Sequence record: NC_054913.1 | Reading direction: 5' to 3' (one strand) | Source: Escherichia phage F2 | Length of the DNA stretch: 64,000 nucleotides | Shown: positions 1 through 12,093 of the stretch, one piece after another | Layout: each line of letters begins with the position of its first letter | How positions within the stretch are numbered: the first letter of the stretch is position 1 | The notes under the pieces: generated by a model | Database searches by the model: none | Seen by the model: the letters and a program-made list of their open reading frames with translations, nothing else | Told to the model about the DNA's origin: nothing | Program-made: the position numbers and the translations under genes

Positions 1-2
1 GT

Positions 3-470
3 ATTCGTCGTATGCTTCAAGAAGGTGAAGAATCATTACAAGAATATTTTAAAGAGTTTGAAAAAGAATTCCGTCAATTGAATTATATTAGCATCGCGTC
101 GGTATCTTCTGCGAATAACATTGCTAAATATGATGTAGGTGGATTCCCTGGTCCCAAATGTCCATTCCATATTCGTGGAATTCTGACGTATAACCGGGCT
201 ATCAAAGGTAATATCGATGCACCGCAAGTTGTAGAAGGTGAAAAAGTATATGTTCTGCCTTTACGTGAAGGAAACCCATTCGGTGATAAATGTATCGCAT
301 GGCCTTCTGGTACTGAAATCACAGATTTAATTAAAGACGACGTACTTCATTGGATGGACTACACTGTTCTCCTTGAGAAGACATTTATTAAACCACTTGA
401 AGGATTCACATCAGCAGCGAAACTCGATTATGAGAAGAAAGCATCTCTGTTCGATATGTTCGATTTTTGA
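3..470 (+). CDS. 43: DNA polymerase gp43, C-terminal fragment (5' end lies outside window)
   Basis: Translation ends ...KYDVGGFPGPKCPFHIRGILTYNRAIKG...KASLFDMFDF, matching the remembered T4 gp43 C-terminus including the clamp-binding tail; no upstream start within window. Confidence 0.85.
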   Translation: MRRMLQEGEESLQEYFKEFEKEFRQLNYISIASVSSANNIAKYDVGGFPGPKCPFHIRGILTYNRAIKGNIDAPQVVEGEKVYVLPLREGNPFGDKCIAWPSGTEITDLIKDDVLHWMDYTVLLEKTFIKPLEGFTSAAKLDYEKKASLFDMFDF

Positions 471-510
471 TATAATGTCATGGACGGTAAACTAATTAAA
501 TGAGAGAAAT

Positions 511-1146
511 ATGAAAACTACTCCTATTACTATCGCTATTGACGCAATCATAAAACAAGCTTCTTCTTTGGCCGCTATGGCCAAAGTAATTAGTCAAAAC
601 CCTGCTCGTTATAATGCTATTCTAGAAACTCTTCGACGCCCAGGACTTAGTAATTATGAAAGCCGAGTAATTATTACAGGTGTTGGTAAGAATGCTAATA
701 TTGCAACTAAAGCTTCTGAGACATTTGCTTCACTCGGTATCCCGAGTATGTACTTGAACACTGGACATTATTCTCACGGTGATGCAGGATTCATTGCGCC
801 TAATGATGTGTTGATTCATATTAGTCGTTCTGGTAAAACTGAAGAAATGATAGGCGTGGCTAAGCATCTTAAAATGATTCGTCCGAACGTCAAACAGATT
901 CTGTTGCATTGTAACCCGGACATTCCACAAGAATACGAAGCTCTTTTTGATTATACGTTCTGTACAGGCATCGCAGTAGAGGTTGATGAGAATTCTCTGG
1001 CTCCGACCATGTCCACTACATTGTTGTTAGCGCTTATCGATACGTTTGCTATCAACCTTTCGTCTGAACGTGGATTTACCTCTAATGACTTCCTTAAGTT
1101 CCACCCTGGCGGTGCACTAGGTGCCATGTTACGAGGCGAACAATGA
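511..1146 (+). CDS. SIS-domain sugar-phosphate isomerase, KdsD/GutQ-like (arabinose-5-phosphate isomerase type, no CBS domains)
   Basis: ITGVGKNANIATKASETFASLGIPSMYLNTGHYSHGDAGF...HISRSGKTEEM...LAPTMSTTLLLALIDTF...FHPGGALG aligns motif-for-motif with the KdsD SIS domain (GMGKSG..FASTGTPS..HGDLG..ISNSGES..LAPTSSTT..SHPGGALG). Confidence 0.8.
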   Translation: MKTTPITIAIDAIIKQASSLAAMAKVISQNPARYNAILETLRRPGLSNYESRVIITGVGKNANIATKASETFASLGIPSMYLNTGHYSHGDAGFIAPNDVLIHISRSGKTEEMIGVAKHLKMIRPNVKQILLHCNPDIPQEYEALFDYTFCTGIAVEVDENSLAPTMSTTLLLALIDTFAINLSSERGFTSNDFLKFHPGGALGAMLRGEQ

Positions 1147-1286
1147 AAGCAATAACAATAGGACTTTTACTATTGATGCTTGTCATGACTATCTACTGGA
1201 GCTTAACGGCTCCAGTAATGATTCCGACTCTTATAATCGGATGGATTATGATTGGACTACAAGCAAAGTATGAATGCTTTAACTAG
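1143..1286 (+). CDS. small hydrophobic membrane peptide (47 aa), below ORF-track cutoff
   Basis: ATG overlaps stop of upstream gene (ATGA); translation MKAITIGLLLLMLVMTIYWSLTAPVMIPTLIIGWIMIGLQAKYECFN predicts two TM helices; T4 has small membrane proteins (imm) near gene 43. Confidence 0.3.
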   Translation: MKAITIGLLLLMLVMTIYWSLTAPVMIPTLIIGWIMIGLQAKYECFN

Positions 1287-1327
1287 AATAGTGTACAATA
1301 CTCCTACTTACCAATGAGGACCACAAC

Positions 1328-3013
1328 ATGAAAAAAGCTGTTATTCTTGGTGCTGGACTGGCAACTCGTTTGTATCCAATAACGCATCATATTCCTAAGG
1401 TGCTTGTTAACTATAAACAAGACACTATTCTGAGCAATTTGTATACAATTTATTCTGACCTTGGCGCAGATGAAATTATTGTAGTAGTTCATTCAAAATT
1501 TGCTGAAACTGTTCGAGCTTATTGTGAGCAAGAAGGGTTCAATGTGACTATTCGTACAGTTGATGAAGCGTATGGTTCTGCTTATGCTCTTGCTAAATTG
1601 CACAAAGATTTAGACGGCCATAATGTAATTGTTAACTGGTGTGATATTATTCCTGATTTTGGTTCATGGTCTTGGAATGTTAACGCAATCTATGTTAAGG
1701 GTGACGAATGTCGATATAATTTCGACGGTGAAAATATCACTAATGTAGGTTCAACAGGTGGTAATGTTGTAGGAATTTATCAGTTCAAAGACTGGGAATT
1801 CTATATGGGTTCTACTGATGAGGAAATTCATGAATACTGCAAAGGACGTGATTTCGTAGAATTCCTTTACGGCAGCGCATTCAATAAATCAGAGCTTATG
1901 AATCTAATTGATTTAGGTGATATGCCTAAACTTGAAAAAGCTCATGAAGTTCGTGAACTTAATCGTAGTTTTAATGCAGTTGAAATTGGTGAAGAAACTG
2001 TAACTAAATTCGCATTAACCGAACAGGGCCGAGCTCTTCAGAAAGATGAGATTTCATGGTATCTTAAAGTGAAATCAGATTCAGTTCCTCAGTTAGTTTC
2101 TGTTAATGAAAATAACTTTGAAATGGAACGCATTAAAGGTAAGCCGGCATTTGAATATATTAAATCCAAATCAAGTCTTGCTCGTCCACAAATTGTTGAT
2201 GCAATTTTAGATGCACTGAAATTCAGCACAGACACTTATTTTGTAAGTCCTGAAACTGTTCGTCGTGATTTCACTAAAGAATTCTATACTAAAGTTATTG
2301 ATCGTTGTGAAAGTATTCAACCATTGATTGATTCATTTGGTAAAATCACACATGTGAACTACACTAAGATCGGACGTCTGAAGCCAATGTTGAAACAAGC
2401 TTTAGAACACCTTATTCGTTATCATAACCGTTCTCAGGGACAGTACTCTGTTATTCATGGTGACCCGAACTTCAGTAATACTATGATTACTGATAACGGC
2501 GAAGTCAAGTTTATCGACCCTCGTGGATATTTTGGTGAAACCAAGATTTACGGGCCAAAATTGTATGATGAAGCTAAAGTGCTTTACGCTGTTTCAGGTT
2601 ATGATGAATTCAACGCTAATCCGACTTGGGGACAGTTTACTATTGATGAAACAACTTGTAATGTGACTATTAACATCAATCCATTAGTTTACAAATATGG
2701 AAAGATGAGTTCGTTTAACGAGTATCATCATTTGGCAGTGGCAATTATCTGGATTGCATTAGGTGGTTATTTCAAGAATAATCCACTTAAAGCGGTAGCC
2801 GCATATTATAAAGGTATGGAACTTCTGACTAAGCAATTACGTAATATGGGCCGTGTACTTCAAGACGGCTCTATTAGTTATGACGTAGCAGAACCTGTAA
2901 CGGCTACTCTGATTACAAAAAATCCTGGTAAATGGGTACTAACTGATAAAGAAACTGGTGTTTCCTATCGTCCAATCGGTGGCGATATCACTCATCAATG
3001 GGAACGAATCTAA
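1328..3013 (+). CDS. bifunctional sugar-1-phosphate nucleotidyltransferase (N-term) / APH-type sugar kinase (C-term)
   Basis: N-terminus ILGAGLATRL is the GxGTRL signature of RmlA/GlmU-type NDP-sugar pyrophosphorylases; C-terminal region has Brenner motif VIHGDPNFSN and IDPRG typical of aminoglycoside/choline-kinase fold. Confidence 0.7.
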   Translation: MKKAVILGAGLATRLYPITHHIPKVLVNYKQDTILSNLYTIYSDLGADEIIVVVHSKFAETVRAYCEQEGFNVTIRTVDEAYGSAYALAKLHKDLDGHNVIVNWCDIIPDFGSWSWNVNAIYVKGDECRYNFDGENITNVGSTGGNVVGIYQFKDWEFYMGSTDEEIHEYCKGRDFVEFLYGSAFNKSELMNLIDLGDMPKLEKAHEVRELNRSFNAVEIGEETVTKFALTEQGRALQKDEISWYLKVKSDSVPQLVSVNENNFEMERIKGKPAFEYIKSKSSLARPQIVDAILDALKFSTDTYFVSPETVRRDFTKEFYTKVIDRCESIQPLIDSFGKITHVNYTKIGRLKPMLKQALEHLIRYHNRSQGQYSVIHGDPNFSNTMITDNGEVKFIDPRGYFGETKIYGPKLYDEAKVLYAVSGYDEFNANPTWGQFTIDETTCNVTININPLVYKYGKMSSFNEYHHLAVAIIWIALGGYFKNNPLKAVAAYYKGMELLTKQLRNMGRVLQDGSISYDVAEPVTATLITKNPGKWVLTDKETGVSYRPIGGDITHQWERI

Positions 3014-3399
3014 TGCACCGTGTAGAAAACATGCTTAATCTTTGTTTTGATGTCGACGATTGTATAACAGAGTGGAATAACAATCGTGATTACGTGAACT
3101 TCAAGCCAGACGTCGAAATGGTGACTGCCATTAATGCCCTGTATGATGCAGGGCATACCATAACGCTTTACACTGCTCGCGGTATGAAGTCAGTCGGTCC
3201 TGGTCGTATAGCAATTGACATTCTCCCAAGTCTGATTCAGAACTTGGCAAACATTGGATTGAAGTACCATAATTTGCTAACACATAAACCAGTATATGAT
3301 TGGATTATCGACGACAAAGCTATGCGTCCTGACGAATTCAAAGCTCTTATGAATAAAGGCGAATTCGAAACATTTAAATCATATAAACCGAATCTATAA
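3013..3399 (+). CDS. HAD-superfamily phosphatase (small, GmhB/KdsC-like)
   Basis: HAD motif I LCFDVDDCIT, motif II LYTAR, motif IV WIIDDK; start chosen at ATG overlapping upstream stop (TAATG). Confidence 0.6.
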   Translation: MHRVENMLNLCFDVDDCITEWNNNRDYVNFKPDVEMVTAINALYDAGHTITLYTARGMKSVGPGRIAIDILPSLIQNLANIGLKYHNLLTHKPVYDWIIDDKAMRPDEFKALMNKGEFETFKSYKPNL

Positions 3400-3446
3400 T
3401 AATTTAAGTAAGACCTGCAAAAACCATCGCATCAATTAACGGCGAG

Positions 3447-4616
3447 ATGCAAAAAATGAATACCTTTAAAATCGGAACGAATTTTGATTTAGCTCTTCTT
3501 GATAAAATCGTAGAGCTCAATAAAACTTATCCTAATAGCTTGATAAACGAAGTATACGGCTCTACAAGAGAAATGGCTTTTGTAGCAGCCAGACCTGATT
3601 TTAGGCTTCCTGACGTTGACAAAAAGATGTTAGAAGATTACGTTAAACGTTGTAACGAATTAGGTATTTGCTTTAACTATACACTCAACACGATAAATCC
3701 TGGTTCAAAAAGAGAACTAGTTGAGTGGAAGAAGAAAGCTATTCAGGACTATGTTCAGTATCTTTGGTCAATAGGCGTATGGCGTATTACTATCGCTAAC
3801 CCTGTTGTTATGGAAATTGTTCGTGAAGTCAATAAAGACATTGAGATTGAAGTTTCAACAATTCTACATGTCGATGCTGTAACTCAAATCAAATACTTGC
3901 ATGACCAATATAATATCAAAAAGGTCTGCTGTGGAATTCATAAGAACCGTTCAGTTTCTTTCCTGAAGCGTGCAGCAGAGTTTTGTAATAAGAACAATAT
4001 AATATTTGAAGTTCTTGTAAATGAGTTCTGTTCTAATGCTGGTAAAGGGTATACAACACATTGTAGCTATCGTGACTCTTGCTATATTTTCCATAGCACC
4101 GATGTTACAGTAGATGATGCCAAATCCTTAAATGGATATCCAATGCAGCACTGTATTAAAGCTCGTGATACAGACCCATTTAACTGGTTGAGAACTCGTT
4201 TTGTTCGTCCTCAAGATTTGAAACTTTATAATGATATTGGTATCACTCAATTCAAAGTTTCAGGACGTACAGGTAGCACCGACTACATTTTGAAAGTTCT
4301 TGAAGCTTACGCTTCTGAAAAGTTTGAAGGTAATTTGTTGGAATTGTGGAAGCCTTTAGAGACCATTTTCACTCTTGAAAATGAGACTGAGTTTTCACAT
4401 ACGGTAAATATTGAAACCTCTTTGTTAGATGGCTTTTTAGAAAAAAGGTGGTTCAAACATCCAGATTTCGATTGTGCTAATGAAATCTGCGGGACGACGT
4501 GTACATATTGTGAAAGATATTATAAACGTCAGTTATCTAAAAATGGGTTATCAGAAAACTCTATATCTATTATTGATATAACTAACTCTGATGACGCTTT
4601 GAGGTACCCAGAATGA
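3447..4616 (+). CDS. Cys-rich protein of unknown function (possible metal/Fe-S enzyme) in sugar module
   Basis: 389 aa ORF, consistent coding frame; cysteine clusters EFCSNAGKGYTTHCSYRDSCY and C-terminal CANEICGTTCTYC; weak resemblance to U32-type TIM-barrel enzymes, not confirmable by eye. Confidence 0.55.
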   Translation: MQKMNTFKIGTNFDLALLDKIVELNKTYPNSLINEVYGSTREMAFVAARPDFRLPDVDKKMLEDYVKRCNELGICFNYTLNTINPGSKRELVEWKKKAIQDYVQYLWSIGVWRITIANPVVMEIVREVNKDIEIEVSTILHVDAVTQIKYLHDQYNIKKVCCGIHKNRSVSFLKRAAEFCNKNNIIFEVLVNEFCSNAGKGYTTHCSYRDSCYIFHSTDVTVDDAKSLNGYPMQHCIKARDTDPFNWLRTRFVRPQDLKLYNDIGITQFKVSGRTGSTDYILKVLEAYASEKFEGNLLELWKPLETIFTLENETEFSHTVNIETSLLDGFLEKRWFKHPDFDCANEICGTTCTYCERYYKRQLSKNGLSENSISIIDITNSDDALRYPE

Positions 4617-4894
4617 TTTCTAGAAAAACTTTTAACCACCAACTTAACGAAGAGATTTTGACTATTAAAATTAACAGCAACGAACAAATTCTTAAAAAGG
4701 CCCTTATGGGCCTGTTTGAAACTAAAGCGGCTAAAGTGATTAAAGAACCTGTTCAATTGTAATACTACGCTGATGCATTTCTTCATAGTGTTCTTGGAAG
4801 TATCGATGCTGAAGCTTTACGTTATATCAACATCGCTAAGAAATTCAAATAAGCTTTATGAATTGAGTATATAATAAATTGTATTGAGGTAAAC

Positions 4895-5611
4895 ATGGGA
4901 AAACATAACACAATGAAATATATTAAAGCCGCAGATTTTCAATCCGCATTTAAAGCTGTCAATCGTGAAATTTTAGAAAACCCGGAATTCGTTACTGATT
5001 CTCGTATTGGACGTTGTAATGAAATTGGGTCTATGACAGTAGTTGTTGATACCCCTTCATCATTCAAAATGACAGACCCACGTATTAATCGCATCTCTTA
5101 TGAATATGCTGAAGATTTCTGGAAATTTATGATTTCTGGTGGTACTGATGCAGAAGAAGCATTTAAGGCATATCCTAACGTTGCTAAATTTATTTCTAAA
5201 CCTAAATCAGATGCTTTGCCTGCAAACTTCAACACTTTCTACGGTCCACGAATTGCGGCCCAGTTACCAACTCTTCTAAAAGAACTTAAAGAAAAACCTA
5301 ACTCTCGAAGAGTTGTGTTCCAAATTCTAGAAAGTTCTGATCAGGCTTTGCTTGATTCAGACGAAACACTTGAATATCCATGTACTGACTCAGTGACTTA
5401 TTATATTCGTGATGGTAAGCTTTATACCCACTGTCATATGCGTTCTCAGAACTGTGCTGTTGTTATGCAGTTGGATTTTTATCTCCAAGGAAAATTACTT
5501 CATTATATCGCTAACGAATGTGGTGTAGAAGTTGGTGATTATACTCATACCATGGTAAGTGCCCATGTGTTTGAACGTGATTTTGATTATGTTAAAGGAT
5601 TCCTTGTCTAA
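4895..5611 (+). CDS. 42: dCMP hydroxymethylase (thymidylate-synthase superfamily)
   Basis: NSRRVVFQI...YPCTDSVTYYIRDGKLYTHCHMRSQNCAVVMQLDF parallels TS catalytic region (DSRRII...PCHxxxQFYVxDGKL...RSxD) but is distinct from td at 53514; syntenic with T4 gene 42; SD GAGGT upstream. Confidence 0.75.
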   Translation: MGKHNTMKYIKAADFQSAFKAVNREILENPEFVTDSRIGRCNEIGSMTVVVDTPSSFKMTDPRINRISYEYAEDFWKFMISGGTDAEEAFKAYPNVAKFISKPKSDALPANFNTFYGPRIAAQLPTLLKELKEKPNSRRVVFQILESSDQALLDSDETLEYPCTDSVTYYIRDGKLYTHCHMRSQNCAVVMQLDFYLQGKLLHYIANECGVEVGDYTHTMVSAHVFERDFDYVKGFLV

Positions 5612-6510
5612 TGGCTATTTTCCGCGTACCTATCTTGAGTATGCGGTCTTATGAAACTGGACAGTATGCTATCCTTAAGGATGGCAACTTCCAACTTCAT
5701 TTGCACCGTGCTAATCCGGGTGATGTGATTACATATCCACGTAATGCATCTGATATTAAAGAATGCGAACGTCTTTTCCCAGAATTTAAGTTTGTTCCAT
5801 TATGGTATAAAGATAACGCATATAACACTCGTAAATATTTCTGGTCTGAAAATGAATTTGTGGTTGATTCATTAATTGATTATTATGATTGTGATTTTCT
5901 AATCACAGATATCACTGGATATGACGGCAATTTTGACGTAGAATTCAATTTCAATATCACTGCAGACCCTAATAAACCACGTTTTTATATTGACGAATTC
6001 TTAAAAACCGACATGTTGTCTGTTAATCGTTCACTTCAAACTACTGTGTTGAATGAACGTCAAAAAGAAGTGCTGGTTAACGCAGGTGCAGATGGTAATA
6101 AGATTATCGTAACGCAGAAAGTTATACGTCCTTCCATCATGCAGCGTCTTGTAGGTGATTTGGCTCCTATTCATCTAGATGGTATTTTTCATCCATTTCG
6201 AATTAGTGACCCGTGCTATCGTTTTGAACAAGTGGTTGAATGTGCAATTCAATTAGGTCAACCGCTTTATATAACCGATCCAAATAATAGCTTCGACAGA
6301 AATAAGTATCCTGAAGAAGCGCTGATTCGAATTTTTAAACCAACTAAAACTGAGTACTATCAAATTCTTAAAGGACGTCCGAAGATTCAATACTTCGAAA
6401 ATCCTGAAGAAGTATTCCATCCAGGTCTTGGCGAGTTCATCTACTTTAATGCTTTAATTTCTTCGCCGTATAATATACCTAAATATGAAGATGTCGTAAT
6501 CGAGGAATAA
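5611..6510 (+). CDS. hypothetical protein occupying the T4 beta-glucosyltransferase position
   Basis: 299 aa ORF, start overlaps stop of gene 42 (TAATG); no motif I recognise; not similar to remembered T4 beta-gt. Confidence 0.5.
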   Translation: MAIFRVPILSMRSYETGQYAILKDGNFQLHLHRANPGDVITYPRNASDIKECERLFPEFKFVPLWYKDNAYNTRKYFWSENEFVVDSLIDYYDCDFLITDITGYDGNFDVEFNFNITADPNKPRFYIDEFLKTDMLSVNRSLQTTVLNERQKEVLVNAGADGNKIIVTQKVIRPSIMQRLVGDLAPIHLDGIFHPFRISDPCYRFEQVVECAIQLGQPLYITDPNNSFDRNKYPEEALIRIFKPTKTEYYQILKGRPKIQYFENPEEVFHPGLGEFIYFNALISSPYNIPKYEDVVIEE

Positions 6511-6511
6511 A

Positions 6512-7060
6512 ATGGCTAAAATTATTTTAGTAGATGGCCCGGATAATGCTGGTAAAACAACTTTCATTAATGACATAATGGAAATTAGTGAAAGATATGT
6601 AAAGATTGATTTCCCTAAACGAACAGTTGATGGACGTTTCGATGTTAAGTCTCGAAATGAAGTTGGCTGTTTCGAAACGATGTTGAATTATTTAGACCCT
6701 ACTAAGATTTATCTGTTAGACCGTGGATATATTAGTAACTGGGTTTATGGACGTATTCGACAAGATGCGGACTCGGTTCTTGACGTTTATGAACAGGATT
6801 ATGTTCGTCTTTGCCAAAACCATGATGTGTTCACAATTATTTTAACACGTAACGAAATGACTGAAAGTTTTGAAGACGACCTTATTACTTTGTCTTCATT
6901 CAGGTTTAATACAGTCATTTCGTATTTTGAAGAGTTTGCAATTCATAACGAAATCCAAACGTATCAATTACTTAATCATGATGGTGCTAACAAAGTTATA
7001 GGATTTAATGCAAGCGAACGTAATAATTTGATTACAGAAATTATCAAATGGGCTCGTTAA
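6512..7060 (+). CDS. P-loop nucleoside/nucleotide kinase-like protein (thymidylate-kinase fold)
   Basis: Walker A ILVDGPDNAGKTT at N-terminus, DRGY lid-like segment; resembles dTMP kinase/dNK family layout. Confidence 0.55.
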   Translation: MAKIILVDGPDNAGKTTFINDIMEISERYVKIDFPKRTVDGRFDVKSRNEVGCFETMLNYLDPTKIYLLDRGYISNWVYGRIRQDADSVLDVYEQDYVRLCQNHDVFTIILTRNEMTESFEDDLITLSSFRFNTVISYFEEFAIHNEIQTYQLLNHDGANKVIGFNASERNNLITEIIKWAR

Positions 7061-7078
7061 GAGCCTGTTTAAAGTTTT

Positions 7079-7106
7079 AAATGCTGTATAACCCTTAGTA
7101 TATAAT
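7079..7106 (+). promoter_or_regulatory. candidate MotA-dependent middle promoter upstream of uvsX (MotA box AAATGCTGTA + TATAAT)
   Basis: aaatgctgta 12 nt upstream of tataat, about 55 nt before uvsX start; matches T4 middle promoter architecture. Confidence 0.4.
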
Positions 7107-7159
7107 CGTCTTATCTTTTAAACATGAGTAAAATATAATGATGCCTATGGAAAAATACA

Positions 7160-8332
7160 ATGTCTGATTTAAAATCTCGTCTGATTAAAGCTTCTACTTC
7201 TAAAATGACTGCAGACTTGACTAAGTCTAAGCTGTTTAATAATCGTGATGAAGTCCCTACTCGTATTCCGATGTTGAATATTGCATTAGGTGGTGCACTG
7301 AATGCTGGGTTGCAATCAGGCTTAACTATTTTTGCTGCTCCTTCTAAACACTTTAAAACGTTGTTTGGACTGACCATGGTTGCAGCATATATGAAGAAAT
7401 ATAAAGATGCAATTTGTTTGTTCTATGATTCGGAATTTGGTGCTTCAGAATCTTATTTTCGTTCAATGGGTGTTGATTTAGACCGTGTAGTTCATACTCC
7501 GATTCAATCTGTCGAACAACTTAAAGTTGATATGACTAATCAGCTTGACGCGATTGAACGCGGTGATAAAGTTATTATCTTTATCGATTCAATCGGTAAT
7601 ACTGCATCTAAGAAAGAAACTGAAGATGCATTGAACGAGAAAGTTGTAGGTGATATGTCTCGTGCTAAGGCACTTAAATCTCTGTTCCGCATTGTGACTC
7701 CTTATCTGACTATTAAAGATATTCCATGTGTTGCAATCAACCATACAGCAATGGAAATCGGTGGATTGTATCCTAAAGAGATTATGGGTGGTGGTACAGG
7801 TATTCTTTACTCTGCTAACACTGTATTCTTTATCTCTAAACGTCAGGTTAAAGAAGGTACAGAATTGACCGGTTATGACTTCACGTTGAAAGCAGAAAAA
7901 TCTCGCACCGTTAAAGAAAAATCTACTTTCCCAATCACGGTTAATTTCGATGGTGGTATTGACCCATTCAGTGGCTTGTTAGAAATGGCAACTGAAATCG
8001 GTTTTGTAGTTAAGCCTAAAGCCGGGTGGTATGCTCGAGAATTCCTTGACGAAGAAACAGGCGAAATGATTCGTGAAGAGAAATCATGGCGTGCTAAAGC
8101 TACTGATTGTGTAGAATTCTGGGGACCGTTGTTTAAACACAAACCTTTCCGAGATGCAATTGAAACTAAATATAAACTAGGTGCTATCTCTTCTATTAAA
8201 GAAGTTGATGATGCTGTTAACGACCTTATTAATTGCAAAGCAACAACTAAAGTTCCGGTTAAAACTTCTGATGCTCCTTCTGCAGCAGATATAGAAAACG
8301 ACCTTGACGAAATGGAAGATTTCGATGAATAA
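7160..8332 (+). CDS. uvsX: UvsX recombinase (RecA-like)
   Basis: 390 aa; sequence MSDLKSRLIKAS...IPMLNIALGG...DSEFGAS... matches T4 UvsX throughout. Confidence 0.95.
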   Translation: MSDLKSRLIKASTSKMTADLTKSKLFNNRDEVPTRIPMLNIALGGALNAGLQSGLTIFAAPSKHFKTLFGLTMVAAYMKKYKDAICLFYDSEFGASESYFRSMGVDLDRVVHTPIQSVEQLKVDMTNQLDAIERGDKVIIFIDSIGNTASKKETEDALNEKVVGDMSRAKALKSLFRIVTPYLTIKDIPCVAINHTAMEIGGLYPKEIMGGGTGILYSANTVFFISKRQVKEGTELTGYDFTLKAEKSRTVKEKSTFPITVNFDGGIDPFSGLLEMATEIGFVVKPKAGWYAREFLDEETGEMIREEKSWRAKATDCVEFWGPLFKHKPFRDAIETKYKLGAISSIKEVDDAVNDLINCKATTKVPVKTSDAPSAADIENDLDEMEDFDE

Positions 8333-8666
8333 TCTCGATGATTTAAATCTAGAAATCGTTGATGAATCCCCTTCTTCGGAAGGGGAAGACATTCGCAAAG
8401 AACGAGTGTTTAATGAATCTCTTAAAATTATCCGTTCAGCAATGGAAAATGTCATTCAAGAGATTCTGATTACACTTGAAGATGGTTCTCATCATATAGT
8501 CTATATTACAAAACTAGACTGGGTTGATGGTAAAATCGTAATGGACTTTGCAGTTCTTGACCAAGACAGAAAAGCAGAACTTGCACCACATGTTGAAAAA
8601 TGTGTTACAATGCAAGTACAACAAGCTTTTAATGAACGGACCAAGAAAAAATTTAAATTCTTTTAA
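8325..8666 (+). CDS. 40: gp40 head vertex assembly chaperone (by position/size)
   Basis: Small ORF between uvsX and 41 as in T4; start ATG overlaps uvsX stop. Confidence 0.55.
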   Translation: MNNLDDLNLEIVDESPSSEGEDIRKERVFNESLKIIRSAMENVIQEILITLEDGSHHIVYITKLDWVDGKIVMDFAVLDQDRKAELAPHVEKCVTMQVQQAFNERTKKKFKFF

Positions 8667-10953: not shown

Positions 10954-11141
10954 GCAAATTAACTAAAGTTACTTTTATTGGTTGGTTTAAAAGCGGTGAG
11001 ATGTTCACTAAAGATATCATGTTATCAGGTGATCGCGAAGAAATCGAGTGGGTTGCTGTACAACTTGCTGAAGTGAACAACGCATTAGTTAAAGCATTTG
11101 TTAATGACGAGAAAGTTTTTGAAGCTGATTTCAGAGGATAA
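10950..11141 (+). CDS. dmd: Dmd-like antitoxin (discriminator of mRNA degradation)
   Basis: MSKLTKVTFIGWFKSGEMFTKDIML...AEVNNALVKAFVNDEKVFEADFRG closely resembles remembered T4 Dmd (..VFMGWFKNESMFTKEI..AEVNKALVKAFIDDKKV..); located between 41 and 61 as in T4. Confidence 0.7.
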   Translation: MSKLTKVTFIGWFKSGEMFTKDIMLSGDREEIEWVAVQLAEVNNALVKAFVNDEKVFEADFRG

Positions 11142-11142
11142 T

Positions 11143-11355
11143 ATGTATTCAACTGTGTTTAAACCATCAACATACGAATTTGCATCAACTACACAATGGA
11201 AAGCTCTTATTCTGGAAGGATGGGAACTAATGATGGACTGTGAAGCATCTGAAAAGTTTCCACACGGCAAAGTGGACTTCGTTAAATTTGCTGTACGTCC
11301 GACTAAACGACAGATTCGTCAAGAAAAACGCAAATTTCGCAAAAGTTTAAAATAA
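11143..11355 (+). CDS. hypothetical protein
   Basis: ATG 2 nt after dmd stop with SD AGAGGA. Confidence 0.45.
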   Translation: MYSTVFKPSTYEFASTTQWKALILEGWELMMDCEASEKFPHGKVDFVKFAVRPTKRQIRQEKRKFRKSLK

Positions 11356-11357
11356 CT

Positions 11358-11387
11358 GTTTACAAGCACCACATACTGTGTTACTAT
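11358..11387 (+). promoter_or_regulatory. T4-type early promoter module
   Basis: gtttac ... tactat with about 18 nt spacing upstream of lipoprotein gene. Confidence 0.4.
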
Positions 11388-11415
11388 CTTTTTATCAACT
11401 ACAGAGGAAATTGAA

Positions 11416-11784
11416 ATGAAAAAATTAATCGCTTTAGCAATGGTATTTGGATTAACCGGATGTGGTGCCCATGGCTTTATCCCTAATAACGTTGGCCAAC
11501 TGATTTACAATCCTAATGTTAAACAGTATGACCAACCTAAAGTTGAAGTGGAAGACCCGGTTACTGTAGGTAATCGAATGATTCAAGCTGATGCCCATGC
11601 TCAACGTTATCGTGACTCTGATACTGTAGCATTGTCAAAAGAACAACGCGTTAAAGAACATTGTCTACAGGCTACTGAAATCGCATTCATTCGCTATGTT
11701 GAAACAACTGGTAAAGAGCCTTCCAAGAAACAAATCGCGAATAACTACGTCCAGTGTATTGAACGTTTAAACAAATTTAATTAA
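11416..11784 (+). CDS. putative lipoprotein
   Basis: Signal peptide with lipobox MKKLIALAMVFGLTGC. Confidence 0.6.
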   Translation: MKKLIALAMVFGLTGCGAHGFIPNNVGQLIYNPNVKQYDQPKVEVEDPVTVGNRMIQADAHAQRYRDSDTVALSKEQRVKEHCLQATEIAFIRYVETTGKEPSKKQIANNYVQCIERLNKFN

Positions 11785-11844
11785 TTGGTTACACCAAAGT
11801 TAAAATAAGATACTATAAACATAACAAATCAAGAGGAAATTAAC

Positions 11845-12093
11845 ATGGAATTATTCGTAGCTAGTTCAGTAGCAGTTTTAATCGCAGGTATTGGTTCAAT
11901 CATCATTTACATGTTGCCTTGGGTAATCGCACTTATTCGTGGCACAAAAAGCACAACAGCAATCTTCTTTGTATCTTTACTCTTTAACTGGACGATGATT
12001 GGTTGGATTGGAACTTTAATTTGGTCTATCGTTGCCGAAAAGAAATCTGCTCAGCAGCCTCAACAAGTAATTATTATTCGCGAAAAAGAATAA
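11845..12093 (+). CDS. small integral membrane protein (2 TM)
   Basis: Two hydrophobic helices (VAVLIAGIGSIIIYMLPWVIALI; IFFVSLLFNWTMIGWIGTLIWSIV). Confidence 0.5.
   Translation: MELFVASSVAVLIAGIGSIIIYMLPWVIALIRGTKSTTAIFFVSLLFNWTMIGWIGTLIWSIVAEKKSAQQPQQVIIIREKE

What the first reader, a model, noticed from the sequence alone, without database searches (positions are those of the whole stretch)
511..4616. Sugar-nucleotide biosynthesis module between DNA polymerase and dCMP hydroxymethylase
Four consecutive genes sit where T4 has only imm/42: a KdsD-like SIS arabinose-5-phosphate isomerase lacking CBS domains, a fusion of an RmlA-type nucleotidyltransferase (GxGTRL) with an APH-fold kinase (HGDxxxxN), a small HAD phosphatase, and a Cys-rich unknown protein. 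A parsimonious pathway is ribulose-5-P -> arabinose-5-P (SIS) -> free pentose (HAD) -> pentose-1-P (kinase) -> NDP-pentose (nucleotidyltransferase), supplying an activated sugar for glycosylation of hmC DNA. Arabinosyl-hmC is known from RB69-like phages, but this enzyme combination as the donor pathway is my inference, not something the sequence proves.
Basis: partly seen in the sequence, partly recalled or inferred. Interest (0 to 1): 0.85.

Follow-up and report, generated by a model that had tools for sequence, protein, structure and literature searches.

The report
Known phage arabinose-DNA pathway, plus unexplained hydroxylase
This is the already-published gene set that RB69-like phages use to make UDP-arabinose for decorating their DNA cytosines; the one member nobody has explained looks like an oxygen-independent, prephenate-using hydroxylase.

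Summary
The window is a Mosigvirus (RB69-like phage), about 98% identical to RB69 and HY126. The ORFs exist as described.

**Already known.** The module was flagged as a UDP-arabinose candidate in 2018. It was resolved in 2025-26 by Mahler 2025, He 2026 and Lee 2026 (PMC13326640). The window's proteins are 95-100% identical to HY126's, and near-identical crystal structures are in the PDB (9iqw, 9iqc).

- The kinase acts before the phosphatase: Ara5P, then Araf-1,5-P2, then Araf-1-P, then UDP-Araf.
- The acceptor base is 5-hydroxycytosine, not hmC.
- The flanking "dCMP hydroxymethylase" is a flavin/O2-dependent dCMP hydroxylase.
- The "Cys-rich unknown" is a U32-family Fe-S protein.

**New lead.** U32 is absent from phages that still arabinosylate (DLP3), so the sugar pathway does not need it.
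- In 13 of 15 T4-like relatives a chorismate mutase gene sits directly beside it.
- In 12 unrelated large-phage loci it sits beside DAHP synthase and/or chorismate mutase. There it is part of the same GT/SIS/kinase/HAD module, but without the ThyA-like hydroxylase.
- Prephenate is the oxygen donor of the known U32 hydroxylases.

I infer an O2-independent route to 5-hydroxycytosine. This is untested.

The parts
12..470 (+). C-terminal end of DNA polymerase gp43 (left boundary of the module)
   Evidence: ORF; annotated as DNA polymerase in all near-identical records.
511..1146 (+). Single-domain SIS arabinose-5-phosphate isomerase (RB69 gp55): Ru5P <-> Ara5P
   Evidence: Pfam SIS 1.7e-10; NCBIfam KpsF/GutQ 2.2e-32 and KdsD 1.2e-30; PDB 3etn 5.5e-25, 5uqi, 2xhz; 100% identical to HY126 XAN60481; role as stated in PMC13326640.
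1143..1286 (+). 47-aa hydrophobic ORF (RB69 ORF054c homologue), function unknown
   Evidence: 100% identical in HY126; 57% to JS98 orf44; no Pfam hit.
1328..3013 (+). Bifunctional AfhE-type enzyme (RB69 gp52:53). The C-terminal kinase makes Araf-1,5-P2 from Ara5P; the N-terminal nucleotidyltransferase makes UDP-Araf from Araf-1-P.
   Evidence: NTP_transferase 8.5e-10 at residues 3-99; kinase-fold hits at 308-409; motifs GAGLATR at residue 8 and HGDPNFSN at residue 377; 97% identical to HY126 XAN60479; activities as reported for HY126 AfhE in PMC13326640.
2998..3399 (+). AfhF-type HAD phosphatase (RB69 gp51): Araf-1,5-P2 -> Araf-1-P
   Evidence: PDB 9iqw E 2e-87 and 1xpj 6.7e-10; TIGR01689 4.6e-13; DVDD motif; role in PMC13326640. 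An alternative start at 3013 is used in the HY126 annotation.
3447..4616 (+). U32-family Fe-S protein (RB69 gp50). Proposed here to be a prephenate-dependent, O2-independent hydroxylase (inference).
   Evidence: Pfam Peptidase_U32 6.4e-11. hhalign to E. coli UbiU/UbiV/RlhA/TrhP: probability 96%, E 2.4e-9, with C206/C212/C236 aligned to UbiU Fe-S ligands C169/C176/C232. 10 invariant Cys. AF2 pLDDT 91; best PDB fold 5d88, a U32 protein. Chorismate mutase or DAHP synthase adjacent in 25 related loci.
4613..4762 (+). Truncated small ORF (RB69 ORF049c homologue; 79 aa when intact)
   Evidence: GAA->TAA nonsense relative to Bas47 and phiE142; HY126 carries indels. It occupies the slot where most T4-like relatives have, in addition, a chorismate mutase gene.
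4895..5611 (+). Thymidylate-synthase-family 5-hydroxy-dCMP synthase (RB69 gp48), flavin/O2-dependent; not a hydroxymethylase
   Evidence: PDB 9iqc/9ir2 E 2.9e-161; 98% identical to HY126; signature L143E, C146, D169N, N177D; activity shown for RB69 gp48 in PMC13326640.
5611..6510 (+). Glycosyltransferase (RB69 gp46:47), putative first DNA arabinosyltransferase
   Evidence: ORF; 99% identical to HY126; assignment in PMC13326640 Table 1; homologues lie next to U32 in about 24 distant loci.
6512..7060 (+). Thymidylate-kinase-like nucleotide kinase (RB69 gp45)
   Evidence: ORF; weak dTMP kinase hit; structural assignment in PMC13326640 Table 1.
7160..8332 (+). UvsX recombinase (right boundary of the module)
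   Evidence: ORF; 100% identical to the HY126 'recombination protein'.

Best explanation
Window 511-7060 is the cytosine-arabinosylation cluster of a Mosigvirus.

Shown elsewhere for near-identical proteins:
- The SIS isomerase diverts ribulose-5-P to D-arabinose-5-P.
- The C-terminal kinase of the 561-aa AfhE-type enzyme phosphorylates C1, giving arabinofuranose-1,5-bisphosphate.
- The small HAD phosphatase (AfhF-type) removes the 5-phosphate.
- The N-terminal nucleotidyltransferase of AfhE makes UDP-arabinofuranose.
- Glycosyltransferases, one of them at 5611-6510, then transfer arabinose onto 5-hydroxycytosine in DNA.
- The hydroxyl of that base was installed on dCMP by the flavin/O2-dependent ThyA homologue at 4895-5611.

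The logic mirrors the ADP-heptose pathway (GmhA isomerase, HldE kinase/nucleotidyltransferase, GmhB phosphatase).

Inferred here:
- The fourth gene (3447-4616) is not part of sugar activation.
- It is a divergent U32-family iron-sulfur enzyme that most likely acts as a prephenate-dependent, O2-independent hydroxylase.
- It would give the phage a route to 5-hydroxy-(d)cytosine when O2 is lacking.
- Host chorismate mutase would supply the prephenate in this genus.

Confidence is about 0.95 for the identity of the module and about 0.45 for the U32 role.
For: Identity of the module:
- The DNA is 97.8-98.8% identical to RB69, HY126 and about 150 other Mosigvirus records.
- The proteins are 95-100% identical to HY126's.
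- PDB 9iqw (2e-87) and 9iqc (3e-161) are near-identical.
- The pathway and the 5hoC chemistry are described in PMC13326640, and 5hoC is confirmed for another Mosigvirus in PMC13390438.
- The hydroxylase signature is.

U32 role:
- Pfam U32 is above its cut-off.
- The profile-profile match to UbiU/UbiV/RlhA/TrhP has probability 96% and E 2.4e-9, with the CX5-6C pair and YP(M/T)xxC aligned to proven UbiU Fe-S ligands.
- U32 is absent from DLP3, which still makes tri-arabinosyl-5hoC, and from JS98.
- It is at least 80% conserved where AfhE has drifted to 43-55%.
- A Pfam-verified chorismate mutase lies immediately downstream in 13 of 15 T4-like loci. It occurs in only 51 of 50,697 phage records, always between U32 and the ThyA-like gene.
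- In unrelated large-phage contigs, U32 sits in GT-SIS-NT/kinase-Tmk-like-[DAHP synthase-chorismate mutase]-HAD-U32 blocks. No hydroxylase-type ThyA lies within 10 kb in about 40 loci.
- Prephenate is the O donor of the U32 hydroxylases, and aerobic-flavin/anaerobic-U32 enzyme pairs are the rule: UbiIHF with UbiUV, TrhO with TrhP (PMC10990095).
Against: - Core pathway: none found here. I could not read the primary biochemical paper (He et al. 2026) and rely on its summary in PMC13326640.
- No experiment supports the U32 role.
- This window's genus has no chorismate mutase in 64 kb.
- Dhakaviruses infect E. coli without U32, so it is not needed by every phage of a facultative anaerobe.
- Only 3 of the 4 UbiU cluster ligands align.
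- No U32 protein has yet shown hydroxylase activity in vitro.
- Lee et al. label gp50 'sugar or heterocycle reductase'.
- ThyA-like genes could lie beyond the 10-kb flanks of the distant loci.
- U32 is also linked to sugar genes in many loci, so a sugar substrate is not excluded.
Confidence: 0.8

Rival explanations
1. One reading: Ara5P is first dephosphorylated by the HAD enzyme to free arabinose. The kinase then phosphorylates it at C1, and the nucleotidyltransferase activates it.
For: The same order appears in the function column of Table 1 of PMC13326640. Anomeric kinases acting on free sugars exist within the APH/choline-kinase fold that the C-terminal domain resembles.
Against: [quoted passage not shown] The HAD protein resembles GmhB-type bisphosphate phosphatases. 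The window's proteins are 95-97% identical to the HY126 ones.
Confidence: 0.07
2. The U32 protein is a sugar-pathway enzyme. It could be a reductase, dehydratase or epimerase-like enzyme acting on the pentose or on UDP-arabinose, as in the annotations 'sugar or heterocycle reductase' and 'enzyme involved in UDP-arabinose biosynthesis'.
For: It lies between the HAD and ThyA-like genes in the cluster. It is so labelled in PMC13326640 Table 1 and in the Bas46/47 records. In many distant loci it co-occurs with SIS, NT/kinase and GT genes.
Against: DLP3 makes tri-arabinosyl-5hoC without it. The three-enzyme route already accounts for UDP-Araf. All characterised U32 members are tied to aromatic-ring C-hydroxylation. 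A sugar role does not explain the chorismate mutase or DAHP synthase adjacency. In L002 and L004 it sits with dCMP deaminase and Tmk, without SIS or NT/kinase.
Confidence: 0.15
3. The U32 protein is a prephenate-dependent hydroxylase, but for another substrate. Candidates are host tRNA or rRNA (like TrhP and RlhA), a quinone, or uracil nucleotides rather than cytosine.
For: The nearest E. coli paralogues by profile score are TrhP and RlhA, which act on RNA. dCMP deaminase, which makes dUMP, is adjacent in several distant loci.
Against: It is embedded in a DNA-base modification cluster, next to the GT and a Tmk-like kinase, in both T4-like and unrelated phages. RB69 DNA shows only cytosine replacement.
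Confidence: 0.15
4. The U32 protein is a genuine peptidase (collagenase-like PrtC), as most GenBank records annotate it.
For: The Pfam family name and RefSeq 'peptidase' labels.
Against: Ten invariant Cys include the family's Fe-S motif. No characterised role of a U32 protein in E. coli is proteolytic. Its context is nucleotide/sugar modification with prephenate-supplying enzymes.
Confidence: 0.02

Closest known systems
Afh pathway of Escherichia phage HY126 and the gp45-gp55 cluster of RB69 (arabinofuranosyl-5-hydroxycytosine DNA)
   Same: Same genes in the same order. Proteins are 95-100% identical and the DNA is about 98% identical. Near-identical crystal structures exist for the HAD phosphatase and the ThyA-like hydroxylase.
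   Different: Only strain-level differences. The 561-aa and 299-aa genes are intact here, whereas the RB69 GenBank record splits them through sequencing errors. The small ORF after U32 carries a nonsense codon here.
ADP-L-glycero-beta-D-manno-heptose pathway (GmhA SIS isomerase, HldE bifunctional kinase/adenylyltransferase, GmhB HAD phosphatase)
   Same: The same four-step logic and the same three protein folds: a SIS isomerase makes the sugar phosphate, a kinase makes a bisphosphate, a HAD phosphatase removes the distal phosphate, and a nucleotidyltransferase activates the sugar. PMC13326640 reports a structural hit of the HAD protein to GmhB.
   Different: The substrate is a pentose rather than a heptose, and the carrier is UDP rather than ADP. 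The kinase belongs to the APH/choline-kinase fold and sits C-terminal to the nucleotidyltransferase. There is no detectable sequence membership in the HldE or GmhB families. The analogy itself rests on established knowledge of the heptose pathway, not on a test made here.
U32 O2-independent hydroxylases: UbiU/UbiV (ubiquinone), RlhA (ho5C2501 of 23S rRNA), TrhP (ho5U34 of tRNA)
   Same: Pfam U32 domain; conserved CX5-6C and downstream Cys aligned to Fe-S ligands; the KIxGRxxS motif. It is genomically coupled to the enzymes that make prephenate, the O donor of this family. It coexists with a flavin/O2-dependent enzyme for the same chemistry, like UbiIHF/UbiUV and TrhO/TrhP.
   Different: A very divergent, phage-only subfamily: phmmer finds no PDB or E. 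coli relative, and the NCBIfam UbiU hit scores 19 bits against a cut-off of 440. It has an extra invariant C-terminal CX4CX3CX2C motif and additional invariant Cys161/180/195. The presumed substrate would be a deoxynucleotide or DNA rather than RNA or a quinone. Activity is untested.
T4 dCMP hydroxymethylase (gp42) with alpha/beta-glucosyltransferases
   Same: [quoted passage not shown] A ThyA-family enzyme modifies dCMP before replication, and GTs decorate the DNA afterwards.
   Different: Here the enzyme hydroxylates C5 directly with flavin and O2 (5hoC, not 5hmC). The sugar is arabinofuranose from a phage-made donor rather than host UDP-glucose.

Membership tests
KpsF/GutQ/KdsD arabinose-5-phosphate isomerases (SIS) | SIS domain with significant similarity to characterised arabinose-5-P isomerases | tested here: met
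   PF01380 41.2 bits against a cut-off of 25; TIGR00393 2.2e-32; KdsD model 1.2e-30; PDB 3etn, 5uqi, 2xhz.
KpsF/GutQ/KdsD arabinose-5-phosphate isomerases (SIS) | Full-length architecture: SIS plus tandem CBS domains | tested here: not met
   The protein is 211 aa with the SIS domain only, and its NCBIfam scores are below the full-length cut-offs (112.7 against 203.7). It matches the single-domain isomerases 3etn and 5uqi instead.
KpsF/GutQ/KdsD arabinose-5-phosphate isomerases (SIS) | Ru5P <-> Ara5P isomerase activity | not testable with these tools
   Proposed computationally in PMC13326640.
AfhE (HY126 bifunctional Ara5P 1-kinase / UDP-arabinose pyrophosphorylase) | Orthology to the characterised HY126 protein | tested here: met
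   545 of 562 residues identical (97%) to HY126 XAN60479, at the same position in the cluster.
AfhE (HY126 bifunctional Ara5P 1-kinase / UDP-arabinose pyrophosphorylase) | N-terminal sugar-1-P nucleotidyltransferase domain with a Gly-rich NTP loop; C-terminal kinase with an HGDxxxxN catalytic loop | tested here: met
   PF00483 39.1 bits against a cut-off of 21.2, at residues 3-99; GAGLATR at residue 8; HGDPNFSN at residue 377; sub-threshold kinase-family hits at residues 308-409.
AfhF / HAD phosphatase (EcbF-BcbF type) | HAD DxD nucleophile motif and similarity to a solved family member | tested here: met
   FDVDDC at residue 18; PDB 9iqw 2e-87 and 1xpj 6.7e-10; TIGR01689 4.6e-13, at 49 bits below the subfamily cut-off of 162.
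5-hydroxy-dCMP synthase clade of the thymidylate synthase superfamily | Catalytic Cys146 retained, with L143E, D169N and N177D (E. coli ThyA numbering) | tested here: met
   E at position 143 and C at 146. RSQN...D gives D169N and N177D when the MAFFT gap is removed. PDB 9iqc 2.9e-161.
Peptidase_U32 / U32 Fe-S hydroxylases | U32 domain above the curated threshold | tested here: met
   PF01136 42.4 bits against a cut-off of 22.4; hhalign to UbiU/UbiV/RlhA/TrhP, probability 96.2%, E 2.4e-9; best PDB fold 5d88.
Peptidase_U32 / U32 Fe-S hydroxylases | Four conserved Cys binding a 4Fe-4S cluster (CX6CX15CX3/4C or a variant) | tested here: inconclusive
   C206, C212 and C236 are invariant and align with UbiU C169, C176 and C232. 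No residue aligns with UbiU C193. Invariant C161, C180 or C195 could substitute. Model coordinates could not be inspected.
Peptidase_U32 / U32 Fe-S hydroxylases | Prephenate-dependent, O2-independent hydroxylation | not testable with these tools
   Only genomic association is available. Chorismate mutase and/or DAHP synthase lie adjacent to U32 in 25 of about 55 loci. None is present in this window.

The most novel reading that the evidence does not exclude
RB69 gp50 and its relatives form a phage-specific branch of the U32 family. They hydroxylate C5 of a deoxypyrimidine (dCMP or DNA cytosine) using prephenate instead of O2.
- T4-like phages of facultative anaerobes keep this enzyme, usually with their own chorismate mutase, as the anaerobic partner of the O2/flavin-dependent ThyA-like 5hodCMP synthase.
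- Unrelated large phages use it, with a phage-encoded DAHP synthase-chorismate mutase, as their only hydroxylase for glycosylated hydroxy-pyrimidine DNA.

This may already be addressed in He et al. 2026 or Mahler et al. 2025, which I could not read.
Probability: 0.4. Interest if true: 0.8.

Novelty: already known. Interest (0 to 1): 0.4.

Why it matters
The sugar-donor module itself adds nothing new. It is the published RB69/HY126 system, which matters for phage therapy, resistance to restriction and CRISPR, and enzymatic synthesis of glycosylated DNA.

The U32 lead would matter for three reasons:
1. The known 5hoC synthase needs O2, yet these phages replace all cytosines while infecting gut bacteria. 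An O2-independent hydroxylase would explain how.
2. No U32 enzyme has been reconstituted in vitro. A small soluble phage enzyme with a nucleotide substrate and a dedicated chorismate mutase could be the tractable model for prephenate-dependent hydroxylation.
3. Phage-encoded DAHP synthase and chorismate mutase would gain a rationale as auxiliary genes that feed a DNA-modification cofactor.

Tried and rejected
- He et al. 2026 (Nat Chem Biol) and Mahler et al. 2025 (Cell Host Microbe) are not held, so the AfhE/AfhF biochemistry is cited second-hand.
- Literature searches linking U32, chorismate mutase or prephenate to phage DNA modification found nothing relevant. The LC53 genome paper and the phage Tn-seq preprint do not mention these genes. 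The Thanatos paper mentions neither U32 nor anaerobiosis.
- A PDB sequence search with the U32 protein found nothing. A family-profile search gave only a spurious BIM1 hit.
- The AFDB fold library was unavailable.
- I first considered that the DAHP_synth_1 neighbours were KdsA, which uses Ara5P. I rejected this because the NCBIfam DAHP synthase models score far better and five of the proteins carry chorismate mutase domains.
- A search for a chorismate mutase anywhere in the 64-kb window was negative.
- A strict rule of 'U32 present if and only if the host is a facultative anaerobe' fails. It holds for Acinetobacter phages (0 of 57) but not for the E. coli Dhakaviruses.

Full report
**1. What is there**

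The + strand of window 1-8400 carries a tight, co-oriented gene row:
- DNA polymerase C-terminus: 12-470
- SIS protein: 511-1146
- 47-aa hydrophobic ORF: 1143-1286
- 561-aa protein: 1328-3013
- 133-aa protein: 2998-3399
- 389-aa protein: 3447-4616
- 49-aa ORF: 4613-4762
- ThyA-family protein: 4895-5611
- 299-aa protein: 5611-6510
- 182-aa protein: 6512-7060
- UvsX: 7160-8332

Base composition is unremarkable.
- The nucleotidyltransferase loop reads GAGLATRL.
- Two small ORFs were missed.
- The "Cys-rich unknown" protein passes Pfam's Peptidase_U32 threshold.

**2. Whose genome, and is it known?**

The first 7.1 kb is 97.8-98.8% identical to about 150 Mosigvirus records, including RB69 and HY126.

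- Thomas et al. 2018 already singled out this module between the polymerase and UvsX genes as the likely source of UDP-arabinose (PMC6024577).
- Lee et al. 2026 (PMC13326640) showed that RB69 DNA carries mono- and di-arabinosylated 5-hydroxycytosine, with the sugar ether-linked directly to C5.
- They also showed that the ThyA homologue gp48 makes 5-hydroxy-dCMP using O2 (18O2 labelling) and a flavin.
- They assigned gp55, gp52:53 and gp51 to NDP-arabinofuranose synthesis.
- Citing He et al. [quoted passage not shown] AfhF is the Mg-dependent phosphatase that converts Araf-1,5-P2 to Araf-1-P.

The window's proteins are 100% (SIS), 97% (AfhE-type), 95.5% (AfhF-type), 98.7% (U32) and 98.3% (ThyA-like) identical to HY126's. 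The PDB holds near-identical chains for the phosphatase (9iqw, 2e-87) and the ThyA-like enzyme (9iqc, 9ir2 and 9iqu, about 1e-160). That these entries are the HY126 proteins is my inference from the sequence identity. The window's ThyA homologue carries the published hydroxylase signature: L143E, C146, D169N and N177D.

The module is therefore already known.

**3.

The general idea is right: the module is a phage-encoded donor pathway for DNA arabinosylation. Four points are wrong or outdated:
- The step order is wrong. The kinase acts before the phosphatase and no free pentose is formed.
- The acceptor is 5hoC, not hmC.
- The neighbouring gene is a hydroxylase, not a hydroxymethylase.
- The fourth protein is neither unknown nor part of the sugar route.

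The pathway is best described as a pentose/UDP analogue of the GmhA-HldE-GmhB heptose route. That comparison rests on established knowledge, plus the GmhB structural hit reported.

**4. The unexplained member: the U32 protein (3447-4616)**

The accessible literature gives it only a table label, "sugar or heterocycle reductase", or the annotation "enzyme involved in UDP-arabinose biosynthesis". The evidence gathered here is as follows.

*(a) Family*
- Pfam U32 matches at 6e-11.
- A 36-member family alignment has 10 invariant Cys.
- Profile-profile comparison with E. coli UbiU, UbiV, RlhA and TrhP gives 96% probability and E 2.4e-9. C206, C212 and C236 align with UbiU C169, C176 and C232, which are three of its four proven 4Fe-4S ligands.
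- A confident AF2 model (pLDDT 91) matches best the only solved U32 protein, 5d88.

*(b) Dispensability for the sugar route*
- Acinetobacter phage DLP3, which makes tri-arabinosyl-5hoC, has no U32 gene. Neither does Dhakavirus JS98.
- Across GenBank phages, U32 occurs in 220 records, none of them from Acinetobacter. The AfhE-type enzyme occurs in 372 records, 57 from Acinetobacter.

*(c) Constraint*
- U32 stays 82-89% identical in genera where AfhE has fallen to 43-55%.

*(d) Context in T4-like relatives*
- In 13 of 15 loci, a roughly 79-130-aa ORF immediately downstream of U32 is a chorismate mutase. Pfam CM_2 scores are 36-52 bits against a cut-off of 27.
- This gene occurs in only 51 of 50,697 phage records, always between the U32 and ThyA-like genes.
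- It is absent from the U32-less clusters.

*(e) Context in unrelated phages*
- Homologues at 37-58% identity lie on large phage contigs of up to 466 kb with DnaE-type polymerases.
- Seven of these loci have a true DAHP synthase next to U32. Five of the seven are fused to a chorismate mutase domain.
- Five more loci have a standalone chorismate mutase right after U32.
- Several carry the whole module in the order GT - SIS - NT/kinase - Tmk-like - DAHPS-CM - HAD - U32 (L038 and L041; L043 is similar).
- None of the roughly 40 distant loci has a hydroxylase-type ThyA within 10 kb. The one ThyA-family gene found (L028) is canonical-like.

*(f) Chemistry*
- Prephenate, the product of chorismate mutase, is the oxygen donor for UbiU/UbiV. 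It is proposed as the donor for RlhA (5-hydroxycytidine in rRNA) and TrhP (5-hydroxyuridine in tRNA).
- These U32 enzymes are the anaerobic counterparts of O2-dependent enzymes (PMC10990095 and PMC6747719).

**5. Mechanism proposed for U32 (inference, about 0.4-0.5)**

gp50 is a prephenate-dependent Fe-S hydroxylase that installs the C5 hydroxyl on a deoxypyrimidine without O2. It would complement the O2/flavin enzyme gp48. Relatives supply prephenate with their own chorismate mutase. Mosigviruses, which have no CM in this 64-kb window, would rely on host PheA and TyrA.

Weak points:
- There is no experiment.
- Dhakaviruses of E. coli lack the gene.
- The fourth cluster ligand is unclear.
- The flanks of the distant loci are limited to 10 kb.
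- U32 is also linked to sugar genes, so a sugar substrate cannot be excluded.
- Two key papers were unreadable and may already address this.

**6. Verdict**

- The module is already known, so the finding as written scores low.
- The U32/chorismate-mutase association is the part worth following. It is reported as the novel case, not as an established result.

Noticed in passing
window 4613-4762: The small ORF after U32 (RB69 ORF049c homologue) is cut to 49 aa by a GAA->TAA change relative to the intact 79-aa ORF of Bas47 and phiE142. HY126 has independent indels in the same gene. It therefore looks dispensable in Mosigviruses.
   Followed up: yes
window 1143-1286: A 47-aa strongly hydrophobic ORF overlaps the SIS stop codon. 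It is 100% conserved in HY126 and 57% identical to JS98 orf44, which sits beside imm there. It has no family hit and its function is unknown.
   Followed up: partly
L014-L025 and L027, about 11130-11900 (T4-like relatives): An AroQ-type chorismate mutase gene lies between the U32 and ThyA-like genes in phages of Enterobacter, Klebsiella, Yersinia, Serratia, Proteus, Pectobacterium, Edwardsiella, Erwinia and Shewanella. Most records call it a hypothetical protein.
   Followed up: yes
L038 8411-9430; L041 7317-8354; L043 8353-9384; L051 11106-12200; L039 108-968; L003 9145-9888; L026 9384-10127: Large uncultured phages encode DAHP synthase, five of seven with a C-terminal chorismate mutase domain, next to the U32 gene. 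These are shikimate-pathway auxiliary genes inside a DNA-modification module.
   Followed up: yes
L002 7447-9939; L004 7504-9826: In some huge-phage contigs U32 is flanked by dCMP deaminase, thymidylate kinase, a UDG-family gene and a conserved 248-254-aa ORF with no family. SIS and NT/kinase are absent. This may be a different hydroxy-pyrimidine modification.
   Followed up: partly
L036 8695-9954: An IS605 OrfB/TnpB (Cas12f-like) gene is inserted between the sugar genes and U32 in one phage contig.
   Followed up: no
L052 7943-9220: A guanylate kinase-methyltransferase fusion gene lies two genes upstream of U32 in one distant locus.
   Followed up: no
L063 3852-4490 (Serratia phage CHI14): A segB-like homing endonuclease gene is inserted between the HAD phosphatase and U32 genes. 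This is an example of the plasticity of the region.
   Followed up: no
L013, L017, L018, L024 (Klebsiella Marfa-type and Proteus phages): These T4-like loci keep the NT/kinase, HAD, U32, ThyA-like and GT genes, but no SIS isomerase was detected. The Tmk-like gene sits between HAD and U32. They presumably use host KdsD or GutQ for Ara5P.
   Followed up: no
window 1328-3013 and 5611-6510: Both genes are intact single ORFs here. The RB69 GenBank record splits them (ORF052/053 and ORF046/047), which the literature attributes to sequencing errors.
   Followed up: yes
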